IMG/VR virus record: IMGVR_UViG_3300032030_000015
Coordinates: 81,002-145,001 of that record
Direction: 5' to 3' (one strand)
Origin: a virus
Lineage: Duplodnaviria > Caudoviricetes
DNA: 64,000 nt
Within the stretch, counting starts at the first letter, position 1. The number at the start of each line of letters is the position of its first letter. The position numbers and the translations under genes were made by a program. Shown piece by piece: positions 377 through 12,234 of this stretch. The notes under the pieces were generated by a model. That model did no database searches and was not told the origin of the DNA. It worked only from the letters and a program-made list of their open reading frames with translations.

Positions 377-532
377 TTAGTCCATGATAATGTTCTTTCT
401 TCTCAGGATTTCTCGCACCGTCTGGGCATCTACCCCTGCGATGCTTGCGATGTTGGCCACTTGCCAGCCGTTCTTCTGCAGGTCGAGCACGTACTGCTCC
501 GTGGTCCTGCCTCCGTGTAGTCTCTTTGTCAT
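377..532 (-). CDS. Small HTH-like protein (51 aa)
   Basis: Own translation MTKRLHGGRTTEQYVLDLQKNGWQVANIASIAGVDAQTVREILRRKNIIMD, with an HTH-like IAxxxGVxxxTV pattern. Better codon usage than the overlapping 360..566 ORF. Confidence 0.6.
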   Translation of the reverse strand: MTKRLHGGRTTEQYVLDLQKNGWQVANIASIAGVDAQTVREILRRKNIIMD

Positions 533-562
533 AATACCTTAATCGTTTGTTTAATTCTATAA

Positions 563-865
563 TCATTGCTGCTTAACTTGAAATCGTCTTGTGATGCGGC
601 CCTTGGTGAGGTCGTAGACGGAGAGTTCCATCTCCACGCGGTCGCCCACCATGACGCGGATGTGGTTCTGTCGCATCTTGCCGCTGATGGTGGCCAGGAT
701 GGTGACGCCGTTGTCCAGCTCCACGTGGTAGTTGTCGTAGCCCAGCGCCTCGGTTATCTCGCCCTGTGCGGTCAGTATGTCGGTGCGCTGGCGTCGGCTG
801 TAGCCGCCGTTCATCTTCACGGCGGGCTTCATCTCTGCGTATCTTCTCTGCTTATGTCTTGCCAT
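563..865 (-). CDS. infA: Translation initiation factor IF-1 homologue with a basic N-terminal extension
   Basis: GEITEALG..YHVELDNG..ILATISGKMRQNHIRVMVGDRVEMELSVYDLTKGRITRR is the IF-1 S1-domain signature. Confidence 0.9.
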   Translation of the reverse strand: MARHKQRRYAEMKPAVKMNGGYSRRQRTDILTAQGEITEALGYDNYHVELDNGVTILATISGKMRQNHIRVMVGDRVEMELSVYDLTKGRITRRFQVKQQ

Positions 866-1072: not shown

Positions 1073-2641
1073 GTTGCCAGCCTTGGCCTTCTGCTTTGGT
1101 TCAGGCGTGGGGGCACAGAACTGGCGCCACTCTCACCTGTGGTCGGGGTCTGCCCGTCGCCTGTATGGTTATCGTCGATGTCTGCAAACTCTATCAGCGG
1201 CATGTCGTTGGTGTCGGTGGATGGGGTAGGGGCCTCTTCCATAAGATCGTCGGTCTCCTCGATGTCGGGCGCGCTGCCGCTCTTCACGGCTGCCTCGCGC
1301 TGTGCCACGATGACGGCATACTCCTCGCGGGTCCGCACCTGCTTCACCTCGACGTTCACGATGTCCGCCGTGTGCGCCAGGTTCTTCGTGACATGCAGGT
1401 AGTAGTTGTCGCCGATGCGAAGCTCGAATCGCTCGGCAATCTGTCGGCAGATGCTGGACGAGCACACCTGCAGCAGGTCGCTCGTGCGGCTCGTGGCACG
1501 GGTGACGTTCGAGCCCTCGGCATTGTTGAACACCAGGAACTGACAGCCCTTGCGGTCGGCGTAGATGTAGCACTTCGTCAGCCCTGCCCGTCGCACGATG
1601 TCAGACAGCACGGCATTGAGCGTGATGCGCTTCTCCGTCGTCTTGTAGTGCAGCGTTGCGTCGTGCTCGCCTAACCTCGGGGCCGTCGGGATTTCGGTCG
1701 TGTTTTCGGTCGTGTCGACGGTCGTAGGCTCGGCGGTTGCAGATGCTGCCTTGCGCTGCTCGTCGGCCTGACGCTCTGCTTCCTTCTTGCGTCGTACTTT
1801 CTTCATCGAGAGCCTTCTTCTCCTGTTCCAGCCGCTGCACCTCGGCCTCGCGCTCGGCTATTTCAATCTCCAGCCGACGCTGTTCCTCCTCTTTCCGCTG
1901 TGCCTCCTCGGCAGCGGCCAGCAGCTCCGTCTGACAGGTCTTGCAATACTCCTGCAGACCGTCATCGGATGTGTCGCTGGCATAAAACTCCGAGCGGAGT
2001 TTGCGCTTGCCGCAGTGGCCGCACACCTTTGTGGTCTTATTCAGGTTTGCCTGTCCCTCGGCTATCTGCTGGCGGGCGGTCTCGTAGCGGGCGTTCGTAA
2101 TTTCCTTGCCCGTCGGCTCTGCTATAGGCTCCTGTGCCGACAGCCGCTCCAGCTTCGCCTGCTTCTCGGCAATCTCCTTCTCCAACTGCTTGATGGCTTT
2201 GGCCTGCTTCTCGGCCTCCTTCTCAGCCTTCTCGCGCTCCTTCTTCTCCTTGTCCCACTTGCCGCCCTCGCACTCACGGCAGTGCTTGTGCAGCGCGCCA
2301 TTCGACTTCGTGGCAAAGGCCGTCCTGGGCAGCACCCGCTGGCAGTGGGGACAGTACACCTGCGCCTCGTCGGCAGTCAGTATGCCCGTGTTGCGGAACT
2401 CGGTCAGCTTCGCCTGCCACTTCTGGTCGATATCCTTCCAGTACTTGAAGCCGAAGATGGTATTGCCCGCACCCGTGAAGTCGAAGGCCGACAGTATCAC
2501 GTCCTCTGCCGCCACCTCGTCGAGGTAGGTGTCGAGGTCGCGCTTGTCGAACCGGTGCGAGCGGTACAGGTACTCGAAGTTGTTCATCACACCCTTTCCC
2601 TGCATGAACTTCGTAAACAGCGTCGTCTCGTCGTAGGTCAT
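1069..2641 (-). CDS. Zn-finger (CxxC pairs) and coiled-coil protein, split by a 1-bp frameshift near 1798-1800
   Basis: ORFs 1601..2641 and 1069..1806 join into one reading (..ALDEE/VRRKKEAERQ..) if one A is removed from GAAGAAAGTA. Motifs CPHC..CREC and CGHC..CKTC. Confidence 0.6.
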
Positions 2642-2646
2642 ATTTC

Positions 2647-3371
2647 TTAGTCTTTATGGTCTTTCTTCTCCTGCCGTGCCTCGATGCGATCCACCTTGCG
2701 GCGGTAGGTAGCGCAGCGCTCCTTCATGTATTCCCACAGGCGGTCTGATTCGTCCATCCACATCTGGGCGTGCCAGTCCTTTGAGTGGCTCAGGTTGTCG
2801 CCCGTCAGCTTCTGAGCCAGTTCGCGGGCGGCCTCTATCTCCTTGAACTTCTCCAGTTTGATGCCGATGTTGTTGCGCTGCAGCAGTTCGTTGATGTCGG
2901 CCACGGTGAAGTCTATCATGTCCATTACGAACGACAGCCCCGCCAGCAGTTCCTGCCAGTGGTCGTACTCGCGGCGGTCCTTCTGCCTGAGCAGGTTGCT
3001 GATGCCACGGATGCTCTTGCGCTTCTCCATCTCCAGCATCCACAGGCGGTCAACTTCCTGGTTCTCCATGTGGCGCATCTTCGTCTGTACAAGGTTGATT
3101 TTCACGAAGTCATGCCGACGGTCCAGCCGCAGAAACTCGTCCTGCAGCTTCTTGTATTCCCTGTTGCCGTTCATCAGGTTCATCTTCGCCTGACGCTGTA
3201 TGGCTTCCGCGTCGATGCCGTACTCAATCGGCTCCACCTCTTGTCCTGTCTCTTTGTTGATCATACTCACGTTCTCCTTGTTGTTTACGAATACCACACG
3301 TCCGTCGGGGTGGTGGTCACTGTCTCGTTGTTCTGTTCGTTGGCTTGCGCCTTAATTTCTTGTTCGTTCAT
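2647..3371 (-). CDS. Hypothetical protein, apparent frameshift near 3297
   Basis: ATG at 3371 (MNEQEIKAQ...PTD) has an AT-rich leader and shifts frame into ORF 2647..3297 at GACGTGTGGTA. Confidence 0.55.
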
Positions 3372-3903: not shown

Positions 3904-6900
3904 TGCTCACCTCCTTCCTCCGGATCTTTCTCCGGTGCTGCCTGCACATACCCCTCCTCATACTCCTTGCCGGCGGTATAGGGCTTGGTGGGCACGCCGC
4001 CGGGACGGTTGCGGTAGAAGTAATGCACGAAGGTGTGCTGGGCAGAGAGTTCGCGGGGCACGCGCTCGCCGGTCGATACCTCGTGGCGGTACTTGTTCTT
4101 CTCCATGCGCTCCACGGGCTTGCCCTGCTGGTCGAGCACGGTGAGCCAGGCACGGGTCTGGCGCCCGCCGCGACGACGGTACGACGCCGTGTTCAGCACC
4201 ACGTCGGGATCCATCACGATGCCCATGCGGTTCAGGCAGGGTTTGAGATACTTCGCTATGCGCTTCTTCGCCTTCTCGATGGTGTCCCAGGTGACGCCCT
4301 CGCCCTCTGCGTCCAATAATGATATCGCCATCTCCTGCGGCGGTATCGGCTGTCCGATGTGAGGGTTGTCGGGCGTGTCCTCGAAGTACTGCACCAGCCA
4401 GTCGGTCAGCCCCGAGTCCTTAGTCATGGCGTAGAGTTCGCGGCGCAGGCTACGGCTCTCCGTCGGCGGCAGGATAGTCTCGTTGGGGTGCTGCAGGTAG
4501 AACTGCGCCATCGCCAGCAGCATGTTCTGCAGCTCGTTCAGCAGGTGTGCCGGCAGGTTACGCGCCACCTCTGCCACGCCGTACTTCTCCAGGAAGTCGT
4601 CCTTCGGGGCATGGTCGAGCCATCGCCCGTCGTCGGTGGCGGCGTGGTAGTAGTCCGAGGTGAAGCAGGGATAGATGCGCCCCTTGGTGGAGCCTGCCGA
4701 GCGGTCGAAGGGCTTGTTCGAGGTGATGAACACCTTGGGCACCTCGTCGCCGGTCAGCGTGACGGGCTGGTGATACAGCGTCTTGCACACCAGTTTCGTG
4801 CCGATGTTGTACAGGTCCTCGACGTTGAAGTTGTCGGGCATCTCGTCCATGCAGACCAGCGTGTGCAGGTGGGCTATGACGTAGCCGAACAGCACCTCCA
4901 TCGAGATGTTCTTCATCGACTTGCCCGCGATGTTGGCCGACGAGGGCCTGACGGTGGCCATCATGTCGATGTGTATGCTTTTTCCGTTGCGTCCGCTGGC
5001 CTTCTGCTCGTCGGTCACGCTGTAGTCGGTCATGTGGACGGTCAGCTGCCGTGCCAGGCTGCGGTGCCGGGTGATGCTGTAGCCGATGGCGTGGCAGTGG
5101 TTGATGAAGTGCATGTCCTGCATCTGCCGCTCGATGGCCGTCAGCTTCTCGCCGAACGACTCCTTCTCCCAGAAGATGCGGCACGTGTTGTACTCGAACT
5201 GGAAGTGCATCGGCATCTCCTCCAGGGGCTTGTCCATGACGAGCCGGAACTTCCACAGTTCCTCCCACTGCTTCCACCGCAGGTTCTCGGCGGCACGCAT
5301 GGCGGGCGTGGTGCATTGCTTCGATATCTCCTCGTGGCGCTTCCGCTCGGTCTCGTACTTCGGGTTGACGACGATGCGCCACGGCTGCTGCTGCACATGG
5401 AACTCGCCCGGCATGATGGCTTCCTCGTTGGTCACCCACGGCAGCCGGTCGTAGGGCACCTCGCGGATCTCGTCCTTCGTCACGCGGACGGCGGTGTTTT
5501 GGAAGAAGAAGTGGTCGAAGTCCTCGCCCCACGAGTGCTCGTTGATGGGTGCCGGCGGCATGGTGTTCATCGTCCGGGCATCGAGTCCCTTGCCGGTGAA
5601 GATGGTGTTCACCAAATTGGCCTTGAACTGCGACGGGTCGTCCCTGCGCTCGTCCTGGTCGGCATACTCTGCATCGTTGCCGAAGTGGGCGTCTATCCAG
5701 TCGAGCATCGACGTGCGGCAGACCGACTCCAGCTGGTTGCCCGTGCGGCTCGTGTCGAGATAGCGATAGGTATTATTGTGCGAGAGCTGATAGAACGCCC
5801 GCTGGCCGCGCTCGTCCTGATGGCAGCGGATGCCCTTCGCGTCGAGGAACTGCAGCAGGTTCGCCACGCTCAGCACGTAGCGCACGTTGTGCTCCTTCTC
5901 GTCCTTGTCGTTCTTCTTCGACGTGTGTTTGTCAATCCAGAACTGCATCGTCAGCGCGTTCTTCAGCATCCGCATCAGTGCCTCCGAGGGGTTCGCCTTC
6001 CGCAAGTCCGGCGCAAACAGTTTCTGTATCTGCGAGAAGTGCGTCACGAAGTCCGTCACGTCCTTGTAGGGCTTCGCCTTGGTTTCCACCTCCCCCATCT
6101 CCTTCGGCAACCGTACCCAATGCACCCTGGCATTCTCCAGAGCGATGCTGGCACTGCAGGCCTGACCCGTTGCGTCGATGTCGTAGCATACATATATATC
6201 TACCGCCACCTGAGCCATCCGCATCAGCAGCACACGCAGCCATTCCTCGACCACGCCGTCCTTGATGCCCGCCAACTCATTGTGCAGCCACAGCACATGA
6301 GCGTCCGTCGCCGCCCACATCTGCATCGCATCGCGAGGCCCTGAGCACAGCACCAGCCGCTTCATCTTCGCCTTCACGGGGTTCTTGTCGCTGTCGCGCT
6401 CTGTCACCACGAGCGGGTGCCGCCTGTCCTTCAGCGCGTCGGCAAACCACGGAGCGGCTGCCGCTTCTCCGGCTGCGGTCCTGTGCTCGGCGGTTCTGCC
6501 GCCGATGGCTTCCATCGCCGCCATCGCCACATGGTCGCCGTACAGCCGTGTGGCCACGTCGCCCTTCTTATACCACGCCCATTTCGTCGTCTTGCTTCTC
6601 GGCTCGTATTTCTTCGTGCCCCATTCATACGGCATCGCGAATATCGGGTACGTCAGCCTGTCGTGAATCTCCAGCGAGCACTTGCCGCCCTGCTTGGCTT
6701 TTACAGGCGAGGTGATGAACACATCGACTGGGTACGTCTGGAACTCCCGCTCGATCGTCTCGCCCCACTCCTGGGCAGTCTTGGCCTCTCCCCTGCCCCG
6801 CCAGAACTCGCGGTCGATTGAGCAGCGGTACAGCGGCACCGGCTTCCCGTCGCCCTCACTGTGCTCGGCGGTTTTGCCGCCGAGGTCGGGCTCTTTATAC

Positions 6901-9335: not shown

Positions 9336-10559
9336 TCATTTCGGCAACTTGTGCCTGAGCGCCTTCCAGTCGGGCTTCTCGGGCGTCTTCGCCTTGAAGT
9401 TGTAGATGGGCTTGATGACGTCGATGACGTCCACCGTCGGGCCGATCTGCTCGACGATTTCCTGCATGGGCTTGTACACCATGGGGCTCTCGTCGATGGT
9501 CTCGGCGCAGACGCTGGTAGAGTAGATGCCGTCCATCGTGCGCTCGAAGTCCTCCAGGCTGATGCTCTGCTGGGCCTGCTTGCGCGACATGAGGCGGCCT
9601 GCGCCGTGGGGTGCGGAGTAGAGCCAGTCGATGTTTCCCTTGCCTCGGCAGAGCAGCGAGCCGTCGCGCATGTTCATCGGGATGATGAGCCGCTCGCCGT
9701 TGAGCGCCCTCACGGCCCCCTTGCGCAGGATGCGGTGCTTGATGTCGATGTAGTTGTGGATGGTCGTGAAGTTGTAGGGGCTCGGGAACATCCACCCCAT
9801 CGCGTCGCAGATAATCCTGGCCATCGTGTGGCGGTTGTCCTCGGCATAGAGCTGGCACAACTGCATGTCCTTGAGGTAGTGCTCGGCATCCATGCCCTCG
9901 ATGAAGGCCAGGTCTTTCGGCACCCGCTTAGCCTTCTGCTTCGCCTCGCGGATGGTGTCTGCTATCTCCTTCTGTCGGCCCTCAGCCTTCAGCCGGGCTA
10001 TAATCTCCTTCTCGTCGTAACCCAGCCCACGGCACAGATATTCCTCTGCCCGCCGCTGCCAGTATTCGCAGACGCGCTTGCCGAGATTACGGCTGCCTGA
10101 GTGGATGACCAGGTACTTCGTGCCGTCGCTGCCCTCGTCCACCTCGATGAAGTGGTTGCCGCCGCCCAGCGTTCCGATGCTGCGCTGCGCCAAGTCTTCG
10201 TCGATGGCCTCGCGGCAATAGAGGCGGTCCAGAAACGGCACGTCCGTCACCGGCTTCTCGTGGACGTTGAAGCCGCTGGGAATCTCGTTGTTCACCACGC
10301 GGTCGAGTTCTTCGAGGTTGATGTCCGTCTTCCCGAGGTTCACCACCAGCATGCCGCAGCCGATGTCCACGCCAACCGTGTTCGGCACGATGCGGTCTTT
10401 TAGCGCAATCACCGTCCCGATGGTGCAGCCCGCCCCGGCGTGGCAGTCGGGCATAATCCTCACGGTGCAATCCTTGTAGGCATCGCACTCGCTCATTTCC
10501 TTAATCTGCCTCTCCGCCGTCTCCTCCAGCGTGGCAGCGTAAATCTTCAGTTTCTCCAT
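9336..10559 (-). CDS. rtcB: RtcB family RNA 2',3'-cyclic phosphate/5'-OH ligase (true start MEKLKIY at 10559)
   Basis: MPDCHAG, VGVDIGCGM, GTLGGGNHFIE, IHSGSRNLG, HNY, RKGA, SAPHGAGR and DESPMVYK: all RtcB catalytic motifs are present. Confidence 0.95.
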   Translation of the reverse strand: MEKLKIYAATLEETAERQIKEMSECDAYKDCTVRIMPDCHAGAGCTIGTVIALKDRIVPNTVGVDIGCGMLVVNLGKTDINLEELDRVVNNEIPSGFNVHEKPVTDVPFLDRLYCREAIDEDLAQRSIGTLGGGNHFIEVDEGSDGTKYLVIHSGSRNLGKRVCEYWQRRAEEYLCRGLGYDEKEIIARLKAEGRQKEIADTIREAKQKAKRVPKDLAFIEGMDAEHYLKDMQLCQLYAEDNRHTMARIICDAMGWMFPSPYNFTTIHNYIDIKHRILRKGAVRALNGERLIIPMNMRDGSLLCRGKGNIDWLYSAPHGAGRLMSRKQAQQSISLEDFERTMDGIYSTSVCAETIDESPMVYKPMQEIVEQIGPTVDVIDVIKPIYNFKAKTPEKPDWKALRHKLPK

Positions 10560-10576
10560 ATTGTATGTTGTTAAAA

Positions 10577-11026
10577 GAGACACAGGCCCGGCGGCGTCGG
10601 ATGATGTCAGCGACAAGGACGATAGCCAGAGCAAGAACCGATGCCACACTCAGCAAGAGCAAGGTCATTTCCGGCGGGCGACGGCCCGCAGGCCCCGAGG
10701 GGAGAGTGTCGTGCGGCATCGTCAGCGTTTGTTGGTTTTGATTAAGTAAATCCGCGAAAGGGATTCGTGTCTACCAATTCCACCACTTGACCACTGGGGC
10801 CAAGACAGGACTCGAACCTGCACACTGTCATCAAACGTTCTAACCAGCTGAACTACTTGTGTAAGCACCACAAGGTGGGAGTCGAACCCACGACCTTCTG
10901 AATGTCGTTTGATACTTGCCAATAGCCCGTAAATGTTGGCACGTGCTACAGAACAAGACCACCTTCCGCTGCCGGTGCGCCGCAGTTTCGCAGTAGATAC
11001 CTTCAGTCTGCGGCTACCTGTGTCTC
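10577..11026 (-). ncRNA. ~450-nt structured RNA containing two circularly permuted tRNA-like (YrlA-like) domains
   Basis: A 10-bp terminal stem GAGACACAGG/CCTGTGTCTC closes the whole intergenic region. It contains two T-arms (GGTTCGA), two loop-closed acceptor stems, two D-arms and further stems. Confidence 0.8.
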
Positions 11027-11042
11027 AATATGTCATAGAACT

Positions 11043-12200
11043 CTATTTCCCCAGCCCGTTCACCCGCTCGTAAACGTCGCGCAGTTCGTTGGGGATGATG
11101 ATGCCCAGGGCGGCTATGCGCTTCGACTCGGCCAGCTTCCACGCTTCGAGGTCGGCGGTCAGCTGCTGGTGGCGCTCCTTCTCGGCGGCGGCCCAGGCGT
11201 TGTACTCGGCCTGCAGCTCGCTGTGCTTGCGGCGCTCCTCCAGGATGTAGTTGTTCAGCTTGTCGCGCAGCACCGACATCTCGCGGTTGAAGTCCTCCGT
11301 GGCCTTCTGCCATTCGGCAGCCTTCGCCTGCTTGTCGGCCTCGATGGTGCGGTCGCGCTCGGCCAGCATGCCGTTCAGCTCGGCCTGCAGGGCGCGGTGC
11401 TCGGCAGCCAGGCGGAAGAACATGCCATCGACGTACTCCTGCGACACCGAGGGCGTGAACTCAATCATCATCGTCTGCGTCCCCTCGCCTGTGGTGCCCA
11501 CGGGGTTGGCGATGACGTGGCGCAAGTTCCTGCGCTCAGTGGCCAGCTTGCCGTCGTCGTGGATGAACTTGCCGATGACGGCAGCCTTCGCCTCCAGGAG
11601 CAACATGCGGTTGCGGTCCTTCACCGACAGCGTGGCCATGTACTCGTCCTCGGTCATCGCCGCCTTCTGCTTCACCTCGGCAGGCATCTTCAGGCCAGCC
11701 TTCAAGCAGAACAGCTGTATCTGATTGTACCCGAAAGCCACCATCGGATTCAGCGACTTCTTCACGTCGGGGAACTTGCCGTCGATGTCGGGCACCTCAT
11801 AGCCGCGCTCCTTCATCCACGTGTCGATGTTCGTGTCTACCTTCGGCACCTCCGCGCCGCCCAGCACCTCCTTGCAGTACGTCGCCAGCGTCGTCTGCTT
11901 CACCTCCGCCAGCAGCCGCTCGCGGGCCTTGATGGCCTCGCGCAGCCATGCTATCAGCGCATGCGCCTCGCCGATGTACGCCAGGCTGTCATACGTCTTG
12001 TCCAGCTGCTCCGCCGTGTTGCCCACCTTGCTCTGCTTCGGCTCGCCGCCGCTCAGCAGGCACACCTTCGTGCCGTAGAAACTCACCCCCGACAGCTCGT
12101 CGGCCAGGTTCTTCACACTCTCCTTCGCCATGTTCGCCACATGGTTCGCGCTCGTCGAGGTCAGTCCAGCCTCGCCAAAATAAATGTAGTCTGATTTCAT
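11043..12200 (-). CDS. Phage coiled-coil protein of unknown function, immediately upstream of the ncRNA
   Basis: Long ORF with FGEAGLTSTSANHVANMAKE, LIAWLREAIKA and a C-terminal GIIIPNELRDVYE; extensive heptad helices. Confidence 0.85.
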   Translation of the reverse strand: MKSDYIYFGEAGLTSTSANHVANMAKESVKNLADELSGVSFYGTKVCLLSGGEPKQSKVGNTAEQLDKTYDSLAYIGEAHALIAWLREAIKARERLLAEVKQTTLATYCKEVLGGAEVPKVDTNIDTWMKERGYEVPDIDGKFPDVKKSLNPMVAFGYNQIQLFCLKAGLKMPAEVKQKAAMTEDEYMATLSVKDRNRMLLLEAKAAVIGKFIHDDGKLATERRNLRHVIANPVGTTGEGTQTMMIEFTPSVSQEYVDGMFFRLAAEHRALQAELNGMLAERDRTIEADKQAKAAEWQKATEDFNREMSVLRDKLNNYILEERRKHSELQAEYNAWAAAEKERHQQLTADLEAWKLAESKRIAALGIIIPNELRDVYERVNGLGK

Positions 12201-12234
12201 ATTCACCTATTTATTTCTAATTACACTATCTGTC

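What the first reader, a model, noticed from the sequence alone, without database searches (positions are those of the whole stretch)
10749..10913. Two tandem circularly permuted tRNA domains, the second ending in a UUC anticodon-like arm
Seen, minus strand 5'->3'. Domain 1: ATCAAAC, T-arm GTGGG-TTCGACT-CCCAC, loop-closed acceptor CTTGTG-GTGCTTA-CACAAG, UA, D-arm GTTC-AGCTGGTTA-GAAC, then GTTTGAT, which pairs with ATCAAAC in place of the anticodon stem. Domain 2: T-arm GCAGG-TTCGAGT-CCTGT, closed acceptor CTTGGCC-CCAGT-GGTCAAG, UG, Leu-type D-arm GTG-GAATTGGTAGA-CAC, G, then AATCC-CTTTCGC-GGATT. That last element is a 5-bp stem with a 7-nt C-U-UUC-G-C loop, the canonical anticodon-arm geometry for Glu(UUC). 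The order T-acceptor-D and the closed acceptors mean neither domain can be charged unless processed. Inference: elbow mimics carrying a bait anticodon loop, or a permuted tRNA precursor matured by cleavage plus RtcB ligation.
Basis: partly seen in the sequence, partly recalled or inferred. Interest (0 to 1): 0.8.

Follow-up and report, generated by a model that had tools for sequence, protein, structure and literature searches.

The report
Double tRNA mimic in phage RNA
The two back-to-front tRNA look-alikes are real and conserved, but they belong to a folded RNA of about 455 bases that travels with an unknown phage protein, not with the RtcB ligase gene next door, and they resemble bacterial YrlA RNAs without the Ro60 partner.

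Summary
Observation confirmed. On the minus strand, 10749-10901 holds two modules in the order T-arm, loop-closed acceptor, U8-R9, D-arm. The second continues into a 5-bp/7-nt anticodon-arm look-alike. Eight other phage or MAG loci carry the same pair. In the five loci aligned, all 7 closed-acceptor pairs covary, and the tRNA 15:48 tertiary pair switches G:C to A:U between module types. The anticodon-like arm covaries at all 5 pairs, with U33 invariant and a purine at 37.

- The UUC triplet is not conserved (UUC, UUG, GCG, GCU, GCA).
- RtcB is not the partner: none of 80 related RtcB loci has a module, and four relatives carrying the RNA lack RtcB and Ro60.

The modules sit in a roughly 455-nt covarying RNA (10572-11026). 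It always follows a 387-aa protein with no Pfam, PHROG or PDB match, in phages found mostly in Bacteroidales MAGs.

Closest known kind: YrlA tRNA mimics, but without the Ro60 handle. This scan has met a similar design before, beside DUF7873, on other DNA. Function is inferred: tRNA-shaped handles or decoys of an RNA-protein particle.

The parts
10572..11026 (-). Whole conserved structured RNA (about 455 nt), from the 5' strand of the terminal helix to the U-run after its 3' strand
   Evidence: RNAalifold on 7 homologues gives 89 pairs, 37 of them with compensatory changes. The stretch lies directly 3' of the 387-aa gene in 9 of 9 loci. The ends are inferred, not mapped.
11017..11026 (-). Terminal helix P1, 5' strand
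   Evidence: It pairs with 10577-10586. Several pairs change on both sides in L326, L329 and L373-L375.
10577..10586 (-). Terminal helix P1, 3' strand, followed by a U-run
   Evidence: The U-run after the helix is kept in distant relatives.
10979..11014 (-). 5' hairpin with a conserved internal loop (ACUGA opposite GAAA)
   Evidence: Invariant in the 7 close homologues. In distant relatives the stem covaries while the loop motif is kept.
10958..10977 (-). Long-range helix P2, 5' strand (pairs with 10588-10605)
   Evidence: RNAalifold, with compensatory changes.
10897..10901 (-). Module 1: 3' strand of the loop-less 'anticodon stem' analogue
   Evidence: It pairs with 10831-10835 in exact tRNA register (5-nt variable loop, one base after the D-stem). 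The register gives 5 of 5 pairs in 6 of 8 homologues, across four different sequences.
10892..10896 (-). Module 1 variable-loop analogue (AGGUC)
   Evidence: C48 goes with G15 in all five modules of this type.
10875..10891 (-). Module 1 T-arm
10856..10874 (-). Module 1 loop-closed acceptor stem (6 bp)
   Evidence: The sequence is entirely different, yet still paired, in L329 and L326.
10837..10855 (-). Module 1 U8-A9 and D-arm
10831..10836 (-). Module 1 base 26 analogue plus 5' strand of the 'anticodon stem' analogue
10822..10829 (-). Linker that ends in the variable-loop analogue of module 2 (U48)
   Evidence: U48 goes with A15 in all five Leu-type modules.
10805..10821 (-). Module 2 T-arm
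10786..10804 (-). Module 2 loop-closed acceptor stem (7 bp)
   Evidence: The stem is replaced by unrelated complementary sequences in L325 and L326.
10766..10785 (-). Module 2 U8-G9, Leu-type D-arm and base 26 analogue
10749..10765 (-). Anticodon-arm look-alike (5 bp, 7-nt loop C-U-UUC-G-C)
   Evidence: All 5 pairs change on both sides. The arm is kept in 8 of 9 homologues. U at loop position 2 is invariant and position 6 is a purine.
10639..10721 (-). Helix P3 (10711-10721 with 10639-10649), enclosing a G+C-rich hairpin and the first pyrimidine-rich repeat
   Evidence: RNAalifold, with three or more compensatory pairs.
10606..10638 (-). Conserved, mostly unpaired pyrimidine-rich stretch with UUG recurring about every six bases
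   Evidence: Highly conserved columns, almost all left unpaired (one 3-bp hairpin). Similar repeats occur in distant relatives.
11043..12206 (-). 387-aa protein gene, the conserved neighbour and presumed partner of the RNA
   Evidence: 573 homologues. All 9 loci of the 387-aa type carry the two modules. None of the roughly 100 loci of the 290-aa type has two T-loops downstream. No Pfam, PHROG or PDB fold match was found.
9336..10559 (-). RtcB ligase gene. It is adjacent to the RNA but is not a conserved part of the unit.
   Evidence: Pfam RtcB at 1e-61. No module lies near 80 related RtcB genes. RtcB is absent from four relatives that carry the RNA.

Best explanation
The stretch encodes two YrlA-type tRNA mimics. 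Each folds as the elbow-and-acceptor body of a tRNA, with the acceptor end sealed by a loop.

Module 1 opens at a 5-bp, loop-less anticodon-stem analogue. Module 2 carries a complete anticodon-arm look-alike and is open between positions 43 and 44.

The modules are not free-standing genes and not tRNA precursors. They are two branches of a structured RNA of about 455 nt. That RNA is closed by a long helix between its two ends and is inherited together with the upstream 387-aa protein of unknown fold.

Most likely the RNA and this protein form a particle that does not depend on Ro60. In it, the tRNA-shaped branches would act as handles or decoys for proteins that recognise tRNA shape: modification or processing enzymes, or tRNA-targeting nucleases of the host.

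Shown: the sequence, the fold signatures, the covariation and the gene linkage. Inferred: transcription, protein binding and the decoy or handle role.
For: Fold:
- Module 1 gives a partial YrlA match.
- Model R1 finds two modules in each of 9 loci.
- On 10 modules, 95.6% of cells pair, against 39-50% when the partners are slid. All 7 closed-acceptor pairs change on both sides.
- The 15:48 pair is G:C in 5 of 5 modules of one type and A:U in 5 of 5 of the other.
- The closing helix of module 1 in exact tRNA register pairs 5 of 5 in 6 of 8 homologues, with four different sequences.
- The anticodon-like arm covaries at 5 of 5 pairs.

Larger RNA:
- RNAalifold, run without any input structure, recovers all these helices plus the terminal and internal helices. 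It gives 89 pairs, 37 of them compensatory.

Linkage:
- The modules occur only downstream of the 387-aa protein type, in 9 of 9 loci. The 290-aa type has no two-T-loop RNA.
- The 387-aa type differs from the 290-aa type by two insertions.

Not RtcB and not Ro60.

Precedent: YrlA is modified by TruB and DusA, and M. smegmatis YrlA is cut by RNase P and receives CCA (PMC4201824). A competitive-inhibitor role for the tRNA-like domain has been proposed in print (PMC7790460).
Against: - No transcript, end-mapping, modification or binding data exist.
- No promoter-like or terminator-like site was found by the simple scans.
- The protein has no recognisable RNA-binding fold.
- L326 has lost the anticodon-like arm and the closing helix of module 1, so these parts are dispensable in at least one lineage.
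- Acceptor stems vary from 5 to 8 bp, which argues against one strict protein ruler.
- Gene adjacency alone does not prove a complex.
Confidence: 0.68

Rival explanations
1. The modules are processing signals. RNase P, then 3' trimming and CCA addition, would cut in the acceptor loops and divide the long RNA into defined pieces, as with M. smegmatis YrlA or the tRNA-like ends of some long RNAs. On this view the tRNA shape serves maturation, not decoy or handle functions.
For: - Module 2 has a 7-bp acceptor stacked on a 5-bp T-stem.
- M. smegmatis YrlA, with a 7-bp stem, is cleaved by RNase P and receives CCA in vivo (PMC4201824).
- True tRNA genes directly follow the RNA in L329, L373-L375 and several distant relatives, so tRNA-processing enzymes probably act on the same transcripts.
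Against: - Acceptor length is not held at 7 bp: it ranges from 5 to 8 bp among homologues.
- The long-range helices that tie the RNA's two ends together covary, which suggests the RNA works as one piece or stays assembled.
- Processing does not explain the conserved anticodon-like arm.
Confidence: 0.14
2. It is an ordinary Y RNA that works with the host's Ro60 (Rsr), supplied in trans by the Bacteroidales host.
For: - The module design is that of YrlA.
- A long helix joins the 5' and 3' ends, as in Y RNAs.
- Bacteroides thetaiotaomicron encodes a TROVE protein (control rows).
- Relatives of the 387-aa gene lie mostly in Bacteroidales MAGs.
Against: - The Ro60-binding motif GNCGAA(N)G is absent from all five RNAs tested.
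- Rfam model positions 1-22 and 90-114 are unmatched.
- No TROVE gene occurs in this phage or in four relatives.
- The conserved neighbour is a different protein.
Confidence: 0.08
3. Module 2 is a circularly permuted tRNA gene. Its transcript would be cut, joined between positions 43 and 44 (by RtcB) and opened at the acceptor to give a decoding tRNA.
For: - The 3' half precedes the 5' half, and every arm of a tRNA is present.
- U33 and a purine at 37 are kept.
- RtcB lies next door in this phage.
Against: - The triplet differs among close relatives (UUC, UUG, GCG, GCU, GCA), and so do the acceptor sequences, so there is no stable identity.
- RtcB is absent from four relatives that carry the RNA.
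- No tRNA-splicing endonuclease is encoded.
- The only leader-trailer complement is not kept in L325.
- The D-arm is Leu-type while the triplets are not.
- Module 1 has no anticodon loop at all.
- ARAGORN calls nothing here.
Confidence: 0.04
4. The stretch is a set of decayed remnants of a tandem tRNA gene cluster (D-arm 1 plus T-arm 2 being one dead tRNA) with no function of its own.
For: - Rfam tRNA scores 30.8 bits on 10801-10859.
- A related RtcB locus (L002) has two true tRNA-Gln genes at the same position.
- tRNA genes are frequent neighbours of this RNA family.
Against: - The linear reading has no anticodon arm and only 4 acceptor pairs here. By eye I found none in L325 or L329.
- The closed acceptors covary at 7 of 7 pairs.
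- The modules are kept across protein divergence down to 58% identity.
Confidence: 0.03
5. It is a permuted (two-piece) tmRNA-like RNA, and the small hydrophobic reading frame in its 3' third is a tag.
For: - The order T-arm, acceptor 3' strand, loop, acceptor 5' strand is that of permuted ssrA genes.
- A short open frame follows (10501-10668), and its peptide is similar in L326 and L333.
Against: - ARAGORN, which detects permuted tmRNA, finds none.
- There is no G3-U70 pair.
- Full D-arms are present.
- The frame is shifted in L329 and reduced to 7-13 codons in distant relatives.
- The same bases form covarying helices.
Confidence: 0.02

Closest known systems
YrlA (Y RNA-like A; Rfam RF02553; Chen et al. 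2014, PMC4201824; structure preprint 10.1101/312249)
   Same: - Order T-arm, loop-closed acceptor-like stem, D-arm.
- A variable-loop analogue with a covarying 15:48 pair.
- A helix in place of the anticodon stem, through which the RNA chain enters and leaves.
- Found in phages as well as bacteria.
- In bacteria it often lies in one operon with rtcB.
   Different: - No Ro60-binding motif, and no Ro60 gene in the phage or its relatives.
- Two modules in one RNA.
- One module has a complete anticodon-arm look-alike.
- The RNA is about four times longer.
- The conserved neighbour is an unrelated 387-aa protein.
- The Rfam score is half the gathering score.
'Double tRNA-mimic RNA beside DUF7873'
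   Same: - A protein gene followed by a folded RNA of 370-490 nt.
- Two permuted tRNA look-alikes, one Leu-type and one standard D-arm.
- Six-base repeats.
- No Ro60.
- I saw one example myself: L151 has a DUF7873 gene and two modules.
   Different: - The protein here is not DUF7873: no Pfam hit, and the profile comparison gave probability 0.05%.
- The repeats differ in sequence and position.
- Module 2 here has an anticodon-like arm.
- Homology between the two RNAs is not shown.
Circularly permuted tRNA genes of red and green algae and Thermofilum (Soma 2014, PMC3978253)
   Same: The 3' half lies upstream of the 5' half, and the acceptor strands are joined by a short intervening sequence.
   Different: Those genes yield decoding tRNAs through a bulge-helix-bulge site, a splicing endonuclease and a circular intermediate. 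Here there is no such enzyme, no conserved leader-trailer helix and no stable anticodon.
tmRNA, including permuted two-piece forms
   Same: A tRNA-like domain embedded in a larger RNA. In the permuted forms, the acceptor 3' strand is encoded before the 5' strand.
   Different: There are no alanine identity elements, full D-arms are present, the tag frame is not conserved, and ARAGORN does not detect it.

Membership tests
YrlA / bacterial Y RNA (RF02553) | tRNA-like domain: T-arm, loop-closed acceptor-like stem and D-arm in that order, with tRNA tertiary signatures | tested here: met
YrlA / bacterial Y RNA (RF02553) | Score at or above Rfam's gathering threshold (69 bits) | tested here: not met
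   36.3 bits, model positions 23-89 only. Six viral-contig loci with the YrlA design (four shown to hold an Rsr-like gene) also gave no YrlA hit at the gathering threshold, so the model is narrow.
YrlA / bacterial Y RNA (RF02553) | Ro60-binding module with the conserved GNCGAA(N)G motif in the terminal helix | tested here: not met
   The motif is absent from all five RNAs tested. The definition of the motif comes from PMC4201824.
YrlA / bacterial Y RNA (RF02553) | Encoded within a few kb of a Ro60/TROVE gene | tested here: not met
   No TROVE match in the complete 145-kb phage, nor in four related records, two of them at least 95% complete.
YrlA / bacterial Y RNA (RF02553) | Bound by Ro60 in cells | not testable with these tools
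   This needs a pull-down. The likely hosts (Bacteroidales) can encode TROVE proteins (control rows).
Circularly permuted tRNA gene | 3' half encoded upstream of the 5' half, with all arms present | tested here: met
   Met by module 2 only. Module 1 lacks an anticodon loop.
Circularly permuted tRNA gene | Leader and trailer form a bulge-helix-bulge site, and a splicing endonuclease is available | tested here: not met
   No PF01974 match in the phage. The only leader-trailer complement (10830-10836 with about 10737-10744) is broken in L325.
Circularly permuted tRNA gene | Stable anticodon and identity elements among orthologues | tested here: not met
   Five different triplets, and unrelated acceptor sequences, among 9 close homologues.
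Canonical tRNA (RF00005) | Cloverleaf with a 7-bp acceptor formed by the two ends, plus an anticodon arm | tested here: not met
   ARAGORN finds none. The 30.8-bit Rfam hit spans D-arm 1 to T-arm 2, with 7 bases where the anticodon arm should be.
DUF7873-associated double tRNA-mimic RNA (seen earlier in this scan) | Two permuted tRNA look-alikes inside one folded RNA of 370-490 nt, directly after a conserved protein gene | tested here: met
DUF7873-associated double tRNA-mimic RNA (seen earlier in this scan) | The neighbouring protein belongs to DUF7873 (PF25283) | tested here: not met
   Searches gave no hit. hhalign against the DUF7873 protein of L151 gave probability 0.05%, but with a single sequence on one side, so remote homology is not excluded.
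Permuted tmRNA | Detected by ARAGORN; G3-U70 alanine identity; conserved tag frame | tested here: not met
   Position 3:70 of module 2 is U-G.

The most novel reading that the evidence does not exclude
The roughly 455-nt RNA and the 387-aa protein form a previously undescribed, Ro60-independent phage RNA-protein particle. Its two tRNA-shaped branches and its variable anticodon-loop mimic engage the host's tRNA-recognising machinery, for example as a decoy for tRNA-cutting defence nucleases. The protein's extra segment (about residues 106-181) would be the part that handles the tRNA-like branches.
Probability: 0.25. Interest if true: 0.85.

Novelty: new variant of a known kind. Interest (0 to 1): 0.68.

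Why it matters
tRNA-shaped domains in non-coding RNAs are known mainly from YrlA, whose tRNA-like part still has no known partner.

Here the same design appears twice in one RNA, once with a full anticodon-arm mimic. It lacks the Ro60 handle and is tied to a different, unknown protein in a large family of gut and rumen phages found mostly in Bacteroidales MAGs.

This separates the tRNA-mimic function from Ro60. It also offers a compact gene-plus-RNA pair in which that function could be tested.

The neighbours are often tRNA genes, an RNA ligase or an anti-defence gene. A role in the conflict over tRNAs between phage and host is therefore plausible, but it has not been tested.

Tried and rejected
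- RtcB as the partner was rejected. 80 related RtcB loci hold no module (the single L002 hit is a junction between two true tRNA-Gln genes). Four relatives that carry the RNA have no RtcB.
- A search for the exact 20-mer found nothing.
- Pattern scans for module 1 joined to module 2 found only ordinary tandem tRNAs in viral contigs. In metagenomes they found five loci that are not homologues of this RNA.
- blastn of the RNA against GenBank phages gave no match.
- A downstream second copy of the 7-mer (about 10737-10744) as an alternative partner of 10830-10836 is not conserved.
- Promoter and terminator scans found nothing.
- For the 387-aa protein: no Pfam or PHROG hit; Foldseek against PDB gave nothing at E <= 0.001; VIA-align gave only generic helical matches, Z up to 6.6; the ESM Atlas returned only its own viral relatives.
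- Complex prediction was not used, because it does not take RNA.
- The mini-ORF as a conserved gene remains undecided: the peptide is similar in 4 of 5 close homologues but frame-shifted in L329.

Full report
**1. Setting.**
The window is the right-hand 64 kb of a complete 145-kb virus record with terminal repeats. All genes around the finding run on the minus strand.

Directly downstream lies an RtcB ligase gene (9336-10559; Pfam 1e-61). Directly upstream lies a 387-aa gene (11043-12206) with no Pfam or PHROG match.

ARAGORN finds no tRNA or tmRNA in the window. It finds a single tRNA-Gln elsewhere in the genome.

**2. The observation.**
Reading the minus strand confirms each element at the stated coordinates.

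| Element | Module 1 | Module 2 |
|---|---|---|
| T-arm | 10875-10891 | 10805-10821 |
| Closed acceptor | 10856-10874 | 10786-10804 |
| U8-R9 | UA | UG |
| D-arm | 10837-10853 | 10767-10783 (Leu-type) |
| After the D-arm | helix strand, see section 4 | one G, then a 5-bp/7-nt hairpin 10749-10765 |

Rfam at gathering level reports only a 30.8-bit tRNA hit that runs from D-arm 1 to T-arm 2, with seven bases where an anticodon arm should be. In a local search the YrlA model matches module 1 (36.3 bits, E 4.5e-6, model positions 23-89 of 114).

**3. Is the closed acceptor real?**
Scanning viral contigs for a T-loop followed within 18-28 bases by either D-arm type gave 253 matches. The seven bases after the T-stem paired fully with the seven before U8 in 19 of them, and at six of seven positions in 15. 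At a chance of 0.375 per pair I would expect about 0.3 and 3 (my arithmetic). Sealed-acceptor modules are therefore a real, recurrent class.

Several of these sit next to Ro60-like genes, as YrlA does. Others form chains inside phage tRNA clusters.

From 20 such modules I built model R1. It finds exactly the two modules in the 64-kb window.

**4. Homologues.**
Relatives of RtcB do not carry the element. R1 gave nothing beside 80 related RtcB genes. The closest relative (79% identity) has protein genes there, and another has two true tRNA-Gln genes.

Relatives of the 387-aa protein do carry it. All nine loci of this protein type have two modules directly after the gene. They are the window, L325, L326, L329/L332 and L333 from viral contigs, and L373-L376 from Bacteroidaceae and Prevotella MAGs. 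Identity to the window's protein ranges from 58% to 72%. None of these loci was used to build R1.

Counts on the ten modules of the five viral loci:
- 95.6% of cells pair, against 39-50% when the partners are slid.
- All seven closed-acceptor pairs show changes on both sides.
- All four D-stem pairs show changes on both sides.

The base before each T-stem and the second D-loop base form C with G in all five standard modules, and U with A in all five Leu-type modules. This is the behaviour of the tRNA 15:48 tertiary pair that Chen et al. used to argue for tRNA mimicry in YrlA (PMC4201824).

The linear reading (acceptor strand of module 1 with that of module 2) gives four pairs here. By eye I found none in L325 or L329. 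The 'decayed tRNA' reading therefore fails.

**5. Two corrections.**
The conserved helix, however, is five pairs, 10897-10901 with 10831-10835. It leaves a 5-base variable loop and one base after the D-stem, which is exactly tRNA geometry. This register gives 5 of 5 pairs in six of eight homologues, with four different sequences, 4 of 5 in L375 and none in L326.
- *Anticodon-like arm.* The hairpin after module 2 is a genuine anticodon-arm look-alike. All five pairs change on both sides, and the loop is seven bases in eight of nine homologues. Loop position 2 is always U and position 6 is a purine. The middle triplet reads UUC here, UUG in L325, L333 and L376, GCG in L329, GCU in L373 and L374, and GCA in L375. 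L326 has lost the arm. In L333 and L376 the order of the two modules is swapped, and the arm stays with the Leu-type module.

**6. The larger RNA.**
An earlier first-stage note pointed to a 10-bp inverted repeat bracketing the whole gap. I tested it.

RNAalifold on seven co-linear homologues predicts 89 pairs, 37 with compensatory changes (four sequences). It was given no structure and recovers:
- the terminal helix (11017-11026 with 10577-10586);
- its long-range extension (10958-10977 with 10588-10605);
- an invariant 5' hairpin with a conserved internal loop (10979-11014);
- all six module helices and the anticodon-like arm;
- a further helix (10711-10721 with 10639-10649).

A conserved pyrimidine-rich stretch (10606-10638) stays almost entirely unpaired. 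A U-run follows the terminal helix in close and distant relatives. I therefore place the RNA at about 11026 to 10572.

None of the five RNAs tested holds the Ro60-binding motif. Neither this phage nor four relatives encode a TROVE protein or, apart from this phage, RtcB. The gene after the RNA varies: RtcB, a radical-SAM protein, an unknown gene, tRNA-Arg, or an unidentified gap followed by a YopX protein.

**7. The protein family.**
The 387-aa protein has 573 or more homologues, mostly of about 290 aa. In genome collections they lie overwhelmingly in Bacteroidales MAGs and a few isolates, which points to the host range.

I analysed 110 loci with enough downstream sequence:
- A long stretch without any sizeable reading frame follows the gene in nearly all.
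- Many show the same 5' hairpin motif with covarying stems, pyrimidine repeats and a closing helix with a U-run.
- Two T-loops occur only in the seven complete 387-aa-type loci among them.

The 387-aa form differs from the 290-aa form by an insertion at about residues 106-181 and a longer C-terminal coiled coil.

The AlphaFold model (pLDDT 77.5) is mostly long helices with two small sheets. It has no significant match in the PDB. A profile comparison with a DUF7873 protein found nothing.

**8. Interpretation.**
Shown:
- two sealed-acceptor tRNA mimics, one with an anticodon-arm mimic;
- their place in a covarying RNA of about 455 nt;
- strict linkage to one protein subfamily;
- independence from RtcB and Ro60.

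Inferred:
- that the RNA and the protein form a particle;
- that the tRNA-shaped branches are handles or decoys for tRNA-recognising proteins.

A decoding tRNA is unlikely. The triplet and the acceptor sequences change among close relatives, no joining or splicing enzyme is conserved, and module 1 has no loop.

A processing role through RNase P and CCA addition remains a live rival. It has a precedent in M. smegmatis YrlA, and true tRNA genes often follow this RNA.

A competitive-inhibitor role for a tRNA-like domain against an anticodon nuclease has been proposed for YrlA (PMC7790460). Here the variable triplet, together with the kept U33 and purine 37, fits a generic anticodon-loop mimic better than a bait for one tRNA species.

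**9. Novelty.**
I found nothing in Rfam 15 and no match in GenBank phages. The papers I searched did not describe this RNA.

The kind, YrlA-type tRNA mimicry, is known. The variant is not: it is doubled, carries an anticodon arm, lacks Ro60 and has a new protein neighbour.

This scan has already reported a similar design beside DUF7873 on other genomes. I saw one such locus myself (L151). The protein here is not recognisably DUF7873.

Noticed in passing
window 10501-10668 (-); L326 about 3990-4097; L333 about 3975-4080: A small hydrophobic reading frame overlaps the RNA's 3' third and the rtcB start. Its peptide is similar in 4 of 5 close homologues, with some synonymous changes. It is frame-shifted in L329 and shrinks to 7-13 codons in distant relatives. 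The same bases form covarying helices.
   Followed up: partly
L334-L366 and L377-L452, the 400-500 nt after the 290-aa homologues: Distant relatives of the 387-aa protein are followed by an RNA-like gap. It shows the same 5' hairpin motif, a closing helix with a U-run, and repeats of GGAGG followed by pyrimidine hexamers, but no tRNA-like modules downstream (L366 has one). This looks like a large RNA family absent from Rfam and found mostly in Bacteroidales phages or MAG contigs.
   Followed up: partly
L152 5688-6215; L097 7565-8280; also L135, L180, L198: Chains of four to six sealed-acceptor T-acceptor-D modules lie head to tail, about 75-85 nt apart, inside phage tRNA gene clusters. A gene with a crAss001_48-related domain follows them.
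   Followed up: partly
L136 5331-5395 (-) and L324 4450-4513 (+): Another small family: a Leu-type sealed-acceptor module followed by a hairpin. The acceptor stems covary between the two loci.
   Followed up: no
L321 about 450-650 (-) and 2024-2725 (-): A series of T-arms and one sealed Leu-type module lies near an RlaP (RNA repair pathway nucleotidyltransferase) gene, on a 107-kb metagenome contig.
   Followed up: no
L333 1768-2499 (+): In one relative the gene just before the 387-aa homologue carries a Tad2-like (Thoeris anti-defence 2) domain. This suggests that the unit sits in a counter-defence neighbourhood.
   Followed up: no
window 10907-10913 and about 10737-10744 (-): A 7-mer that can pair with 10830-10836 occurs on both sides of the two modules. 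Neither copy is conserved as a partner, and the upstream copy lies in an insertion shared only with L325.
   Followed up: yes
L329 about 4685-4760 (-); L373-L375 about 4125-4200 (+); L326 1967-2039 (+): True tRNA genes flank the RNA in relatives: tRNA-Arg(ACG) directly after it (called by ARAGORN in L329's record; read by eye in L373-L375) and tRNA-Lys(UUU) before the protein gene. In the distant relative L345, by eye, a tRNA-Gln(UUG) gene whose anticodon loop has the same seven bases as the arm in L325 and L333 follows the RNA.
   Followed up: partly
L002 1974-2129 (+): A phage with a 73%-identical RtcB has two genuine tRNA-Gln genes (UUG and CUG) at the position where this window has the structured RNA.
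   Followed up: yes
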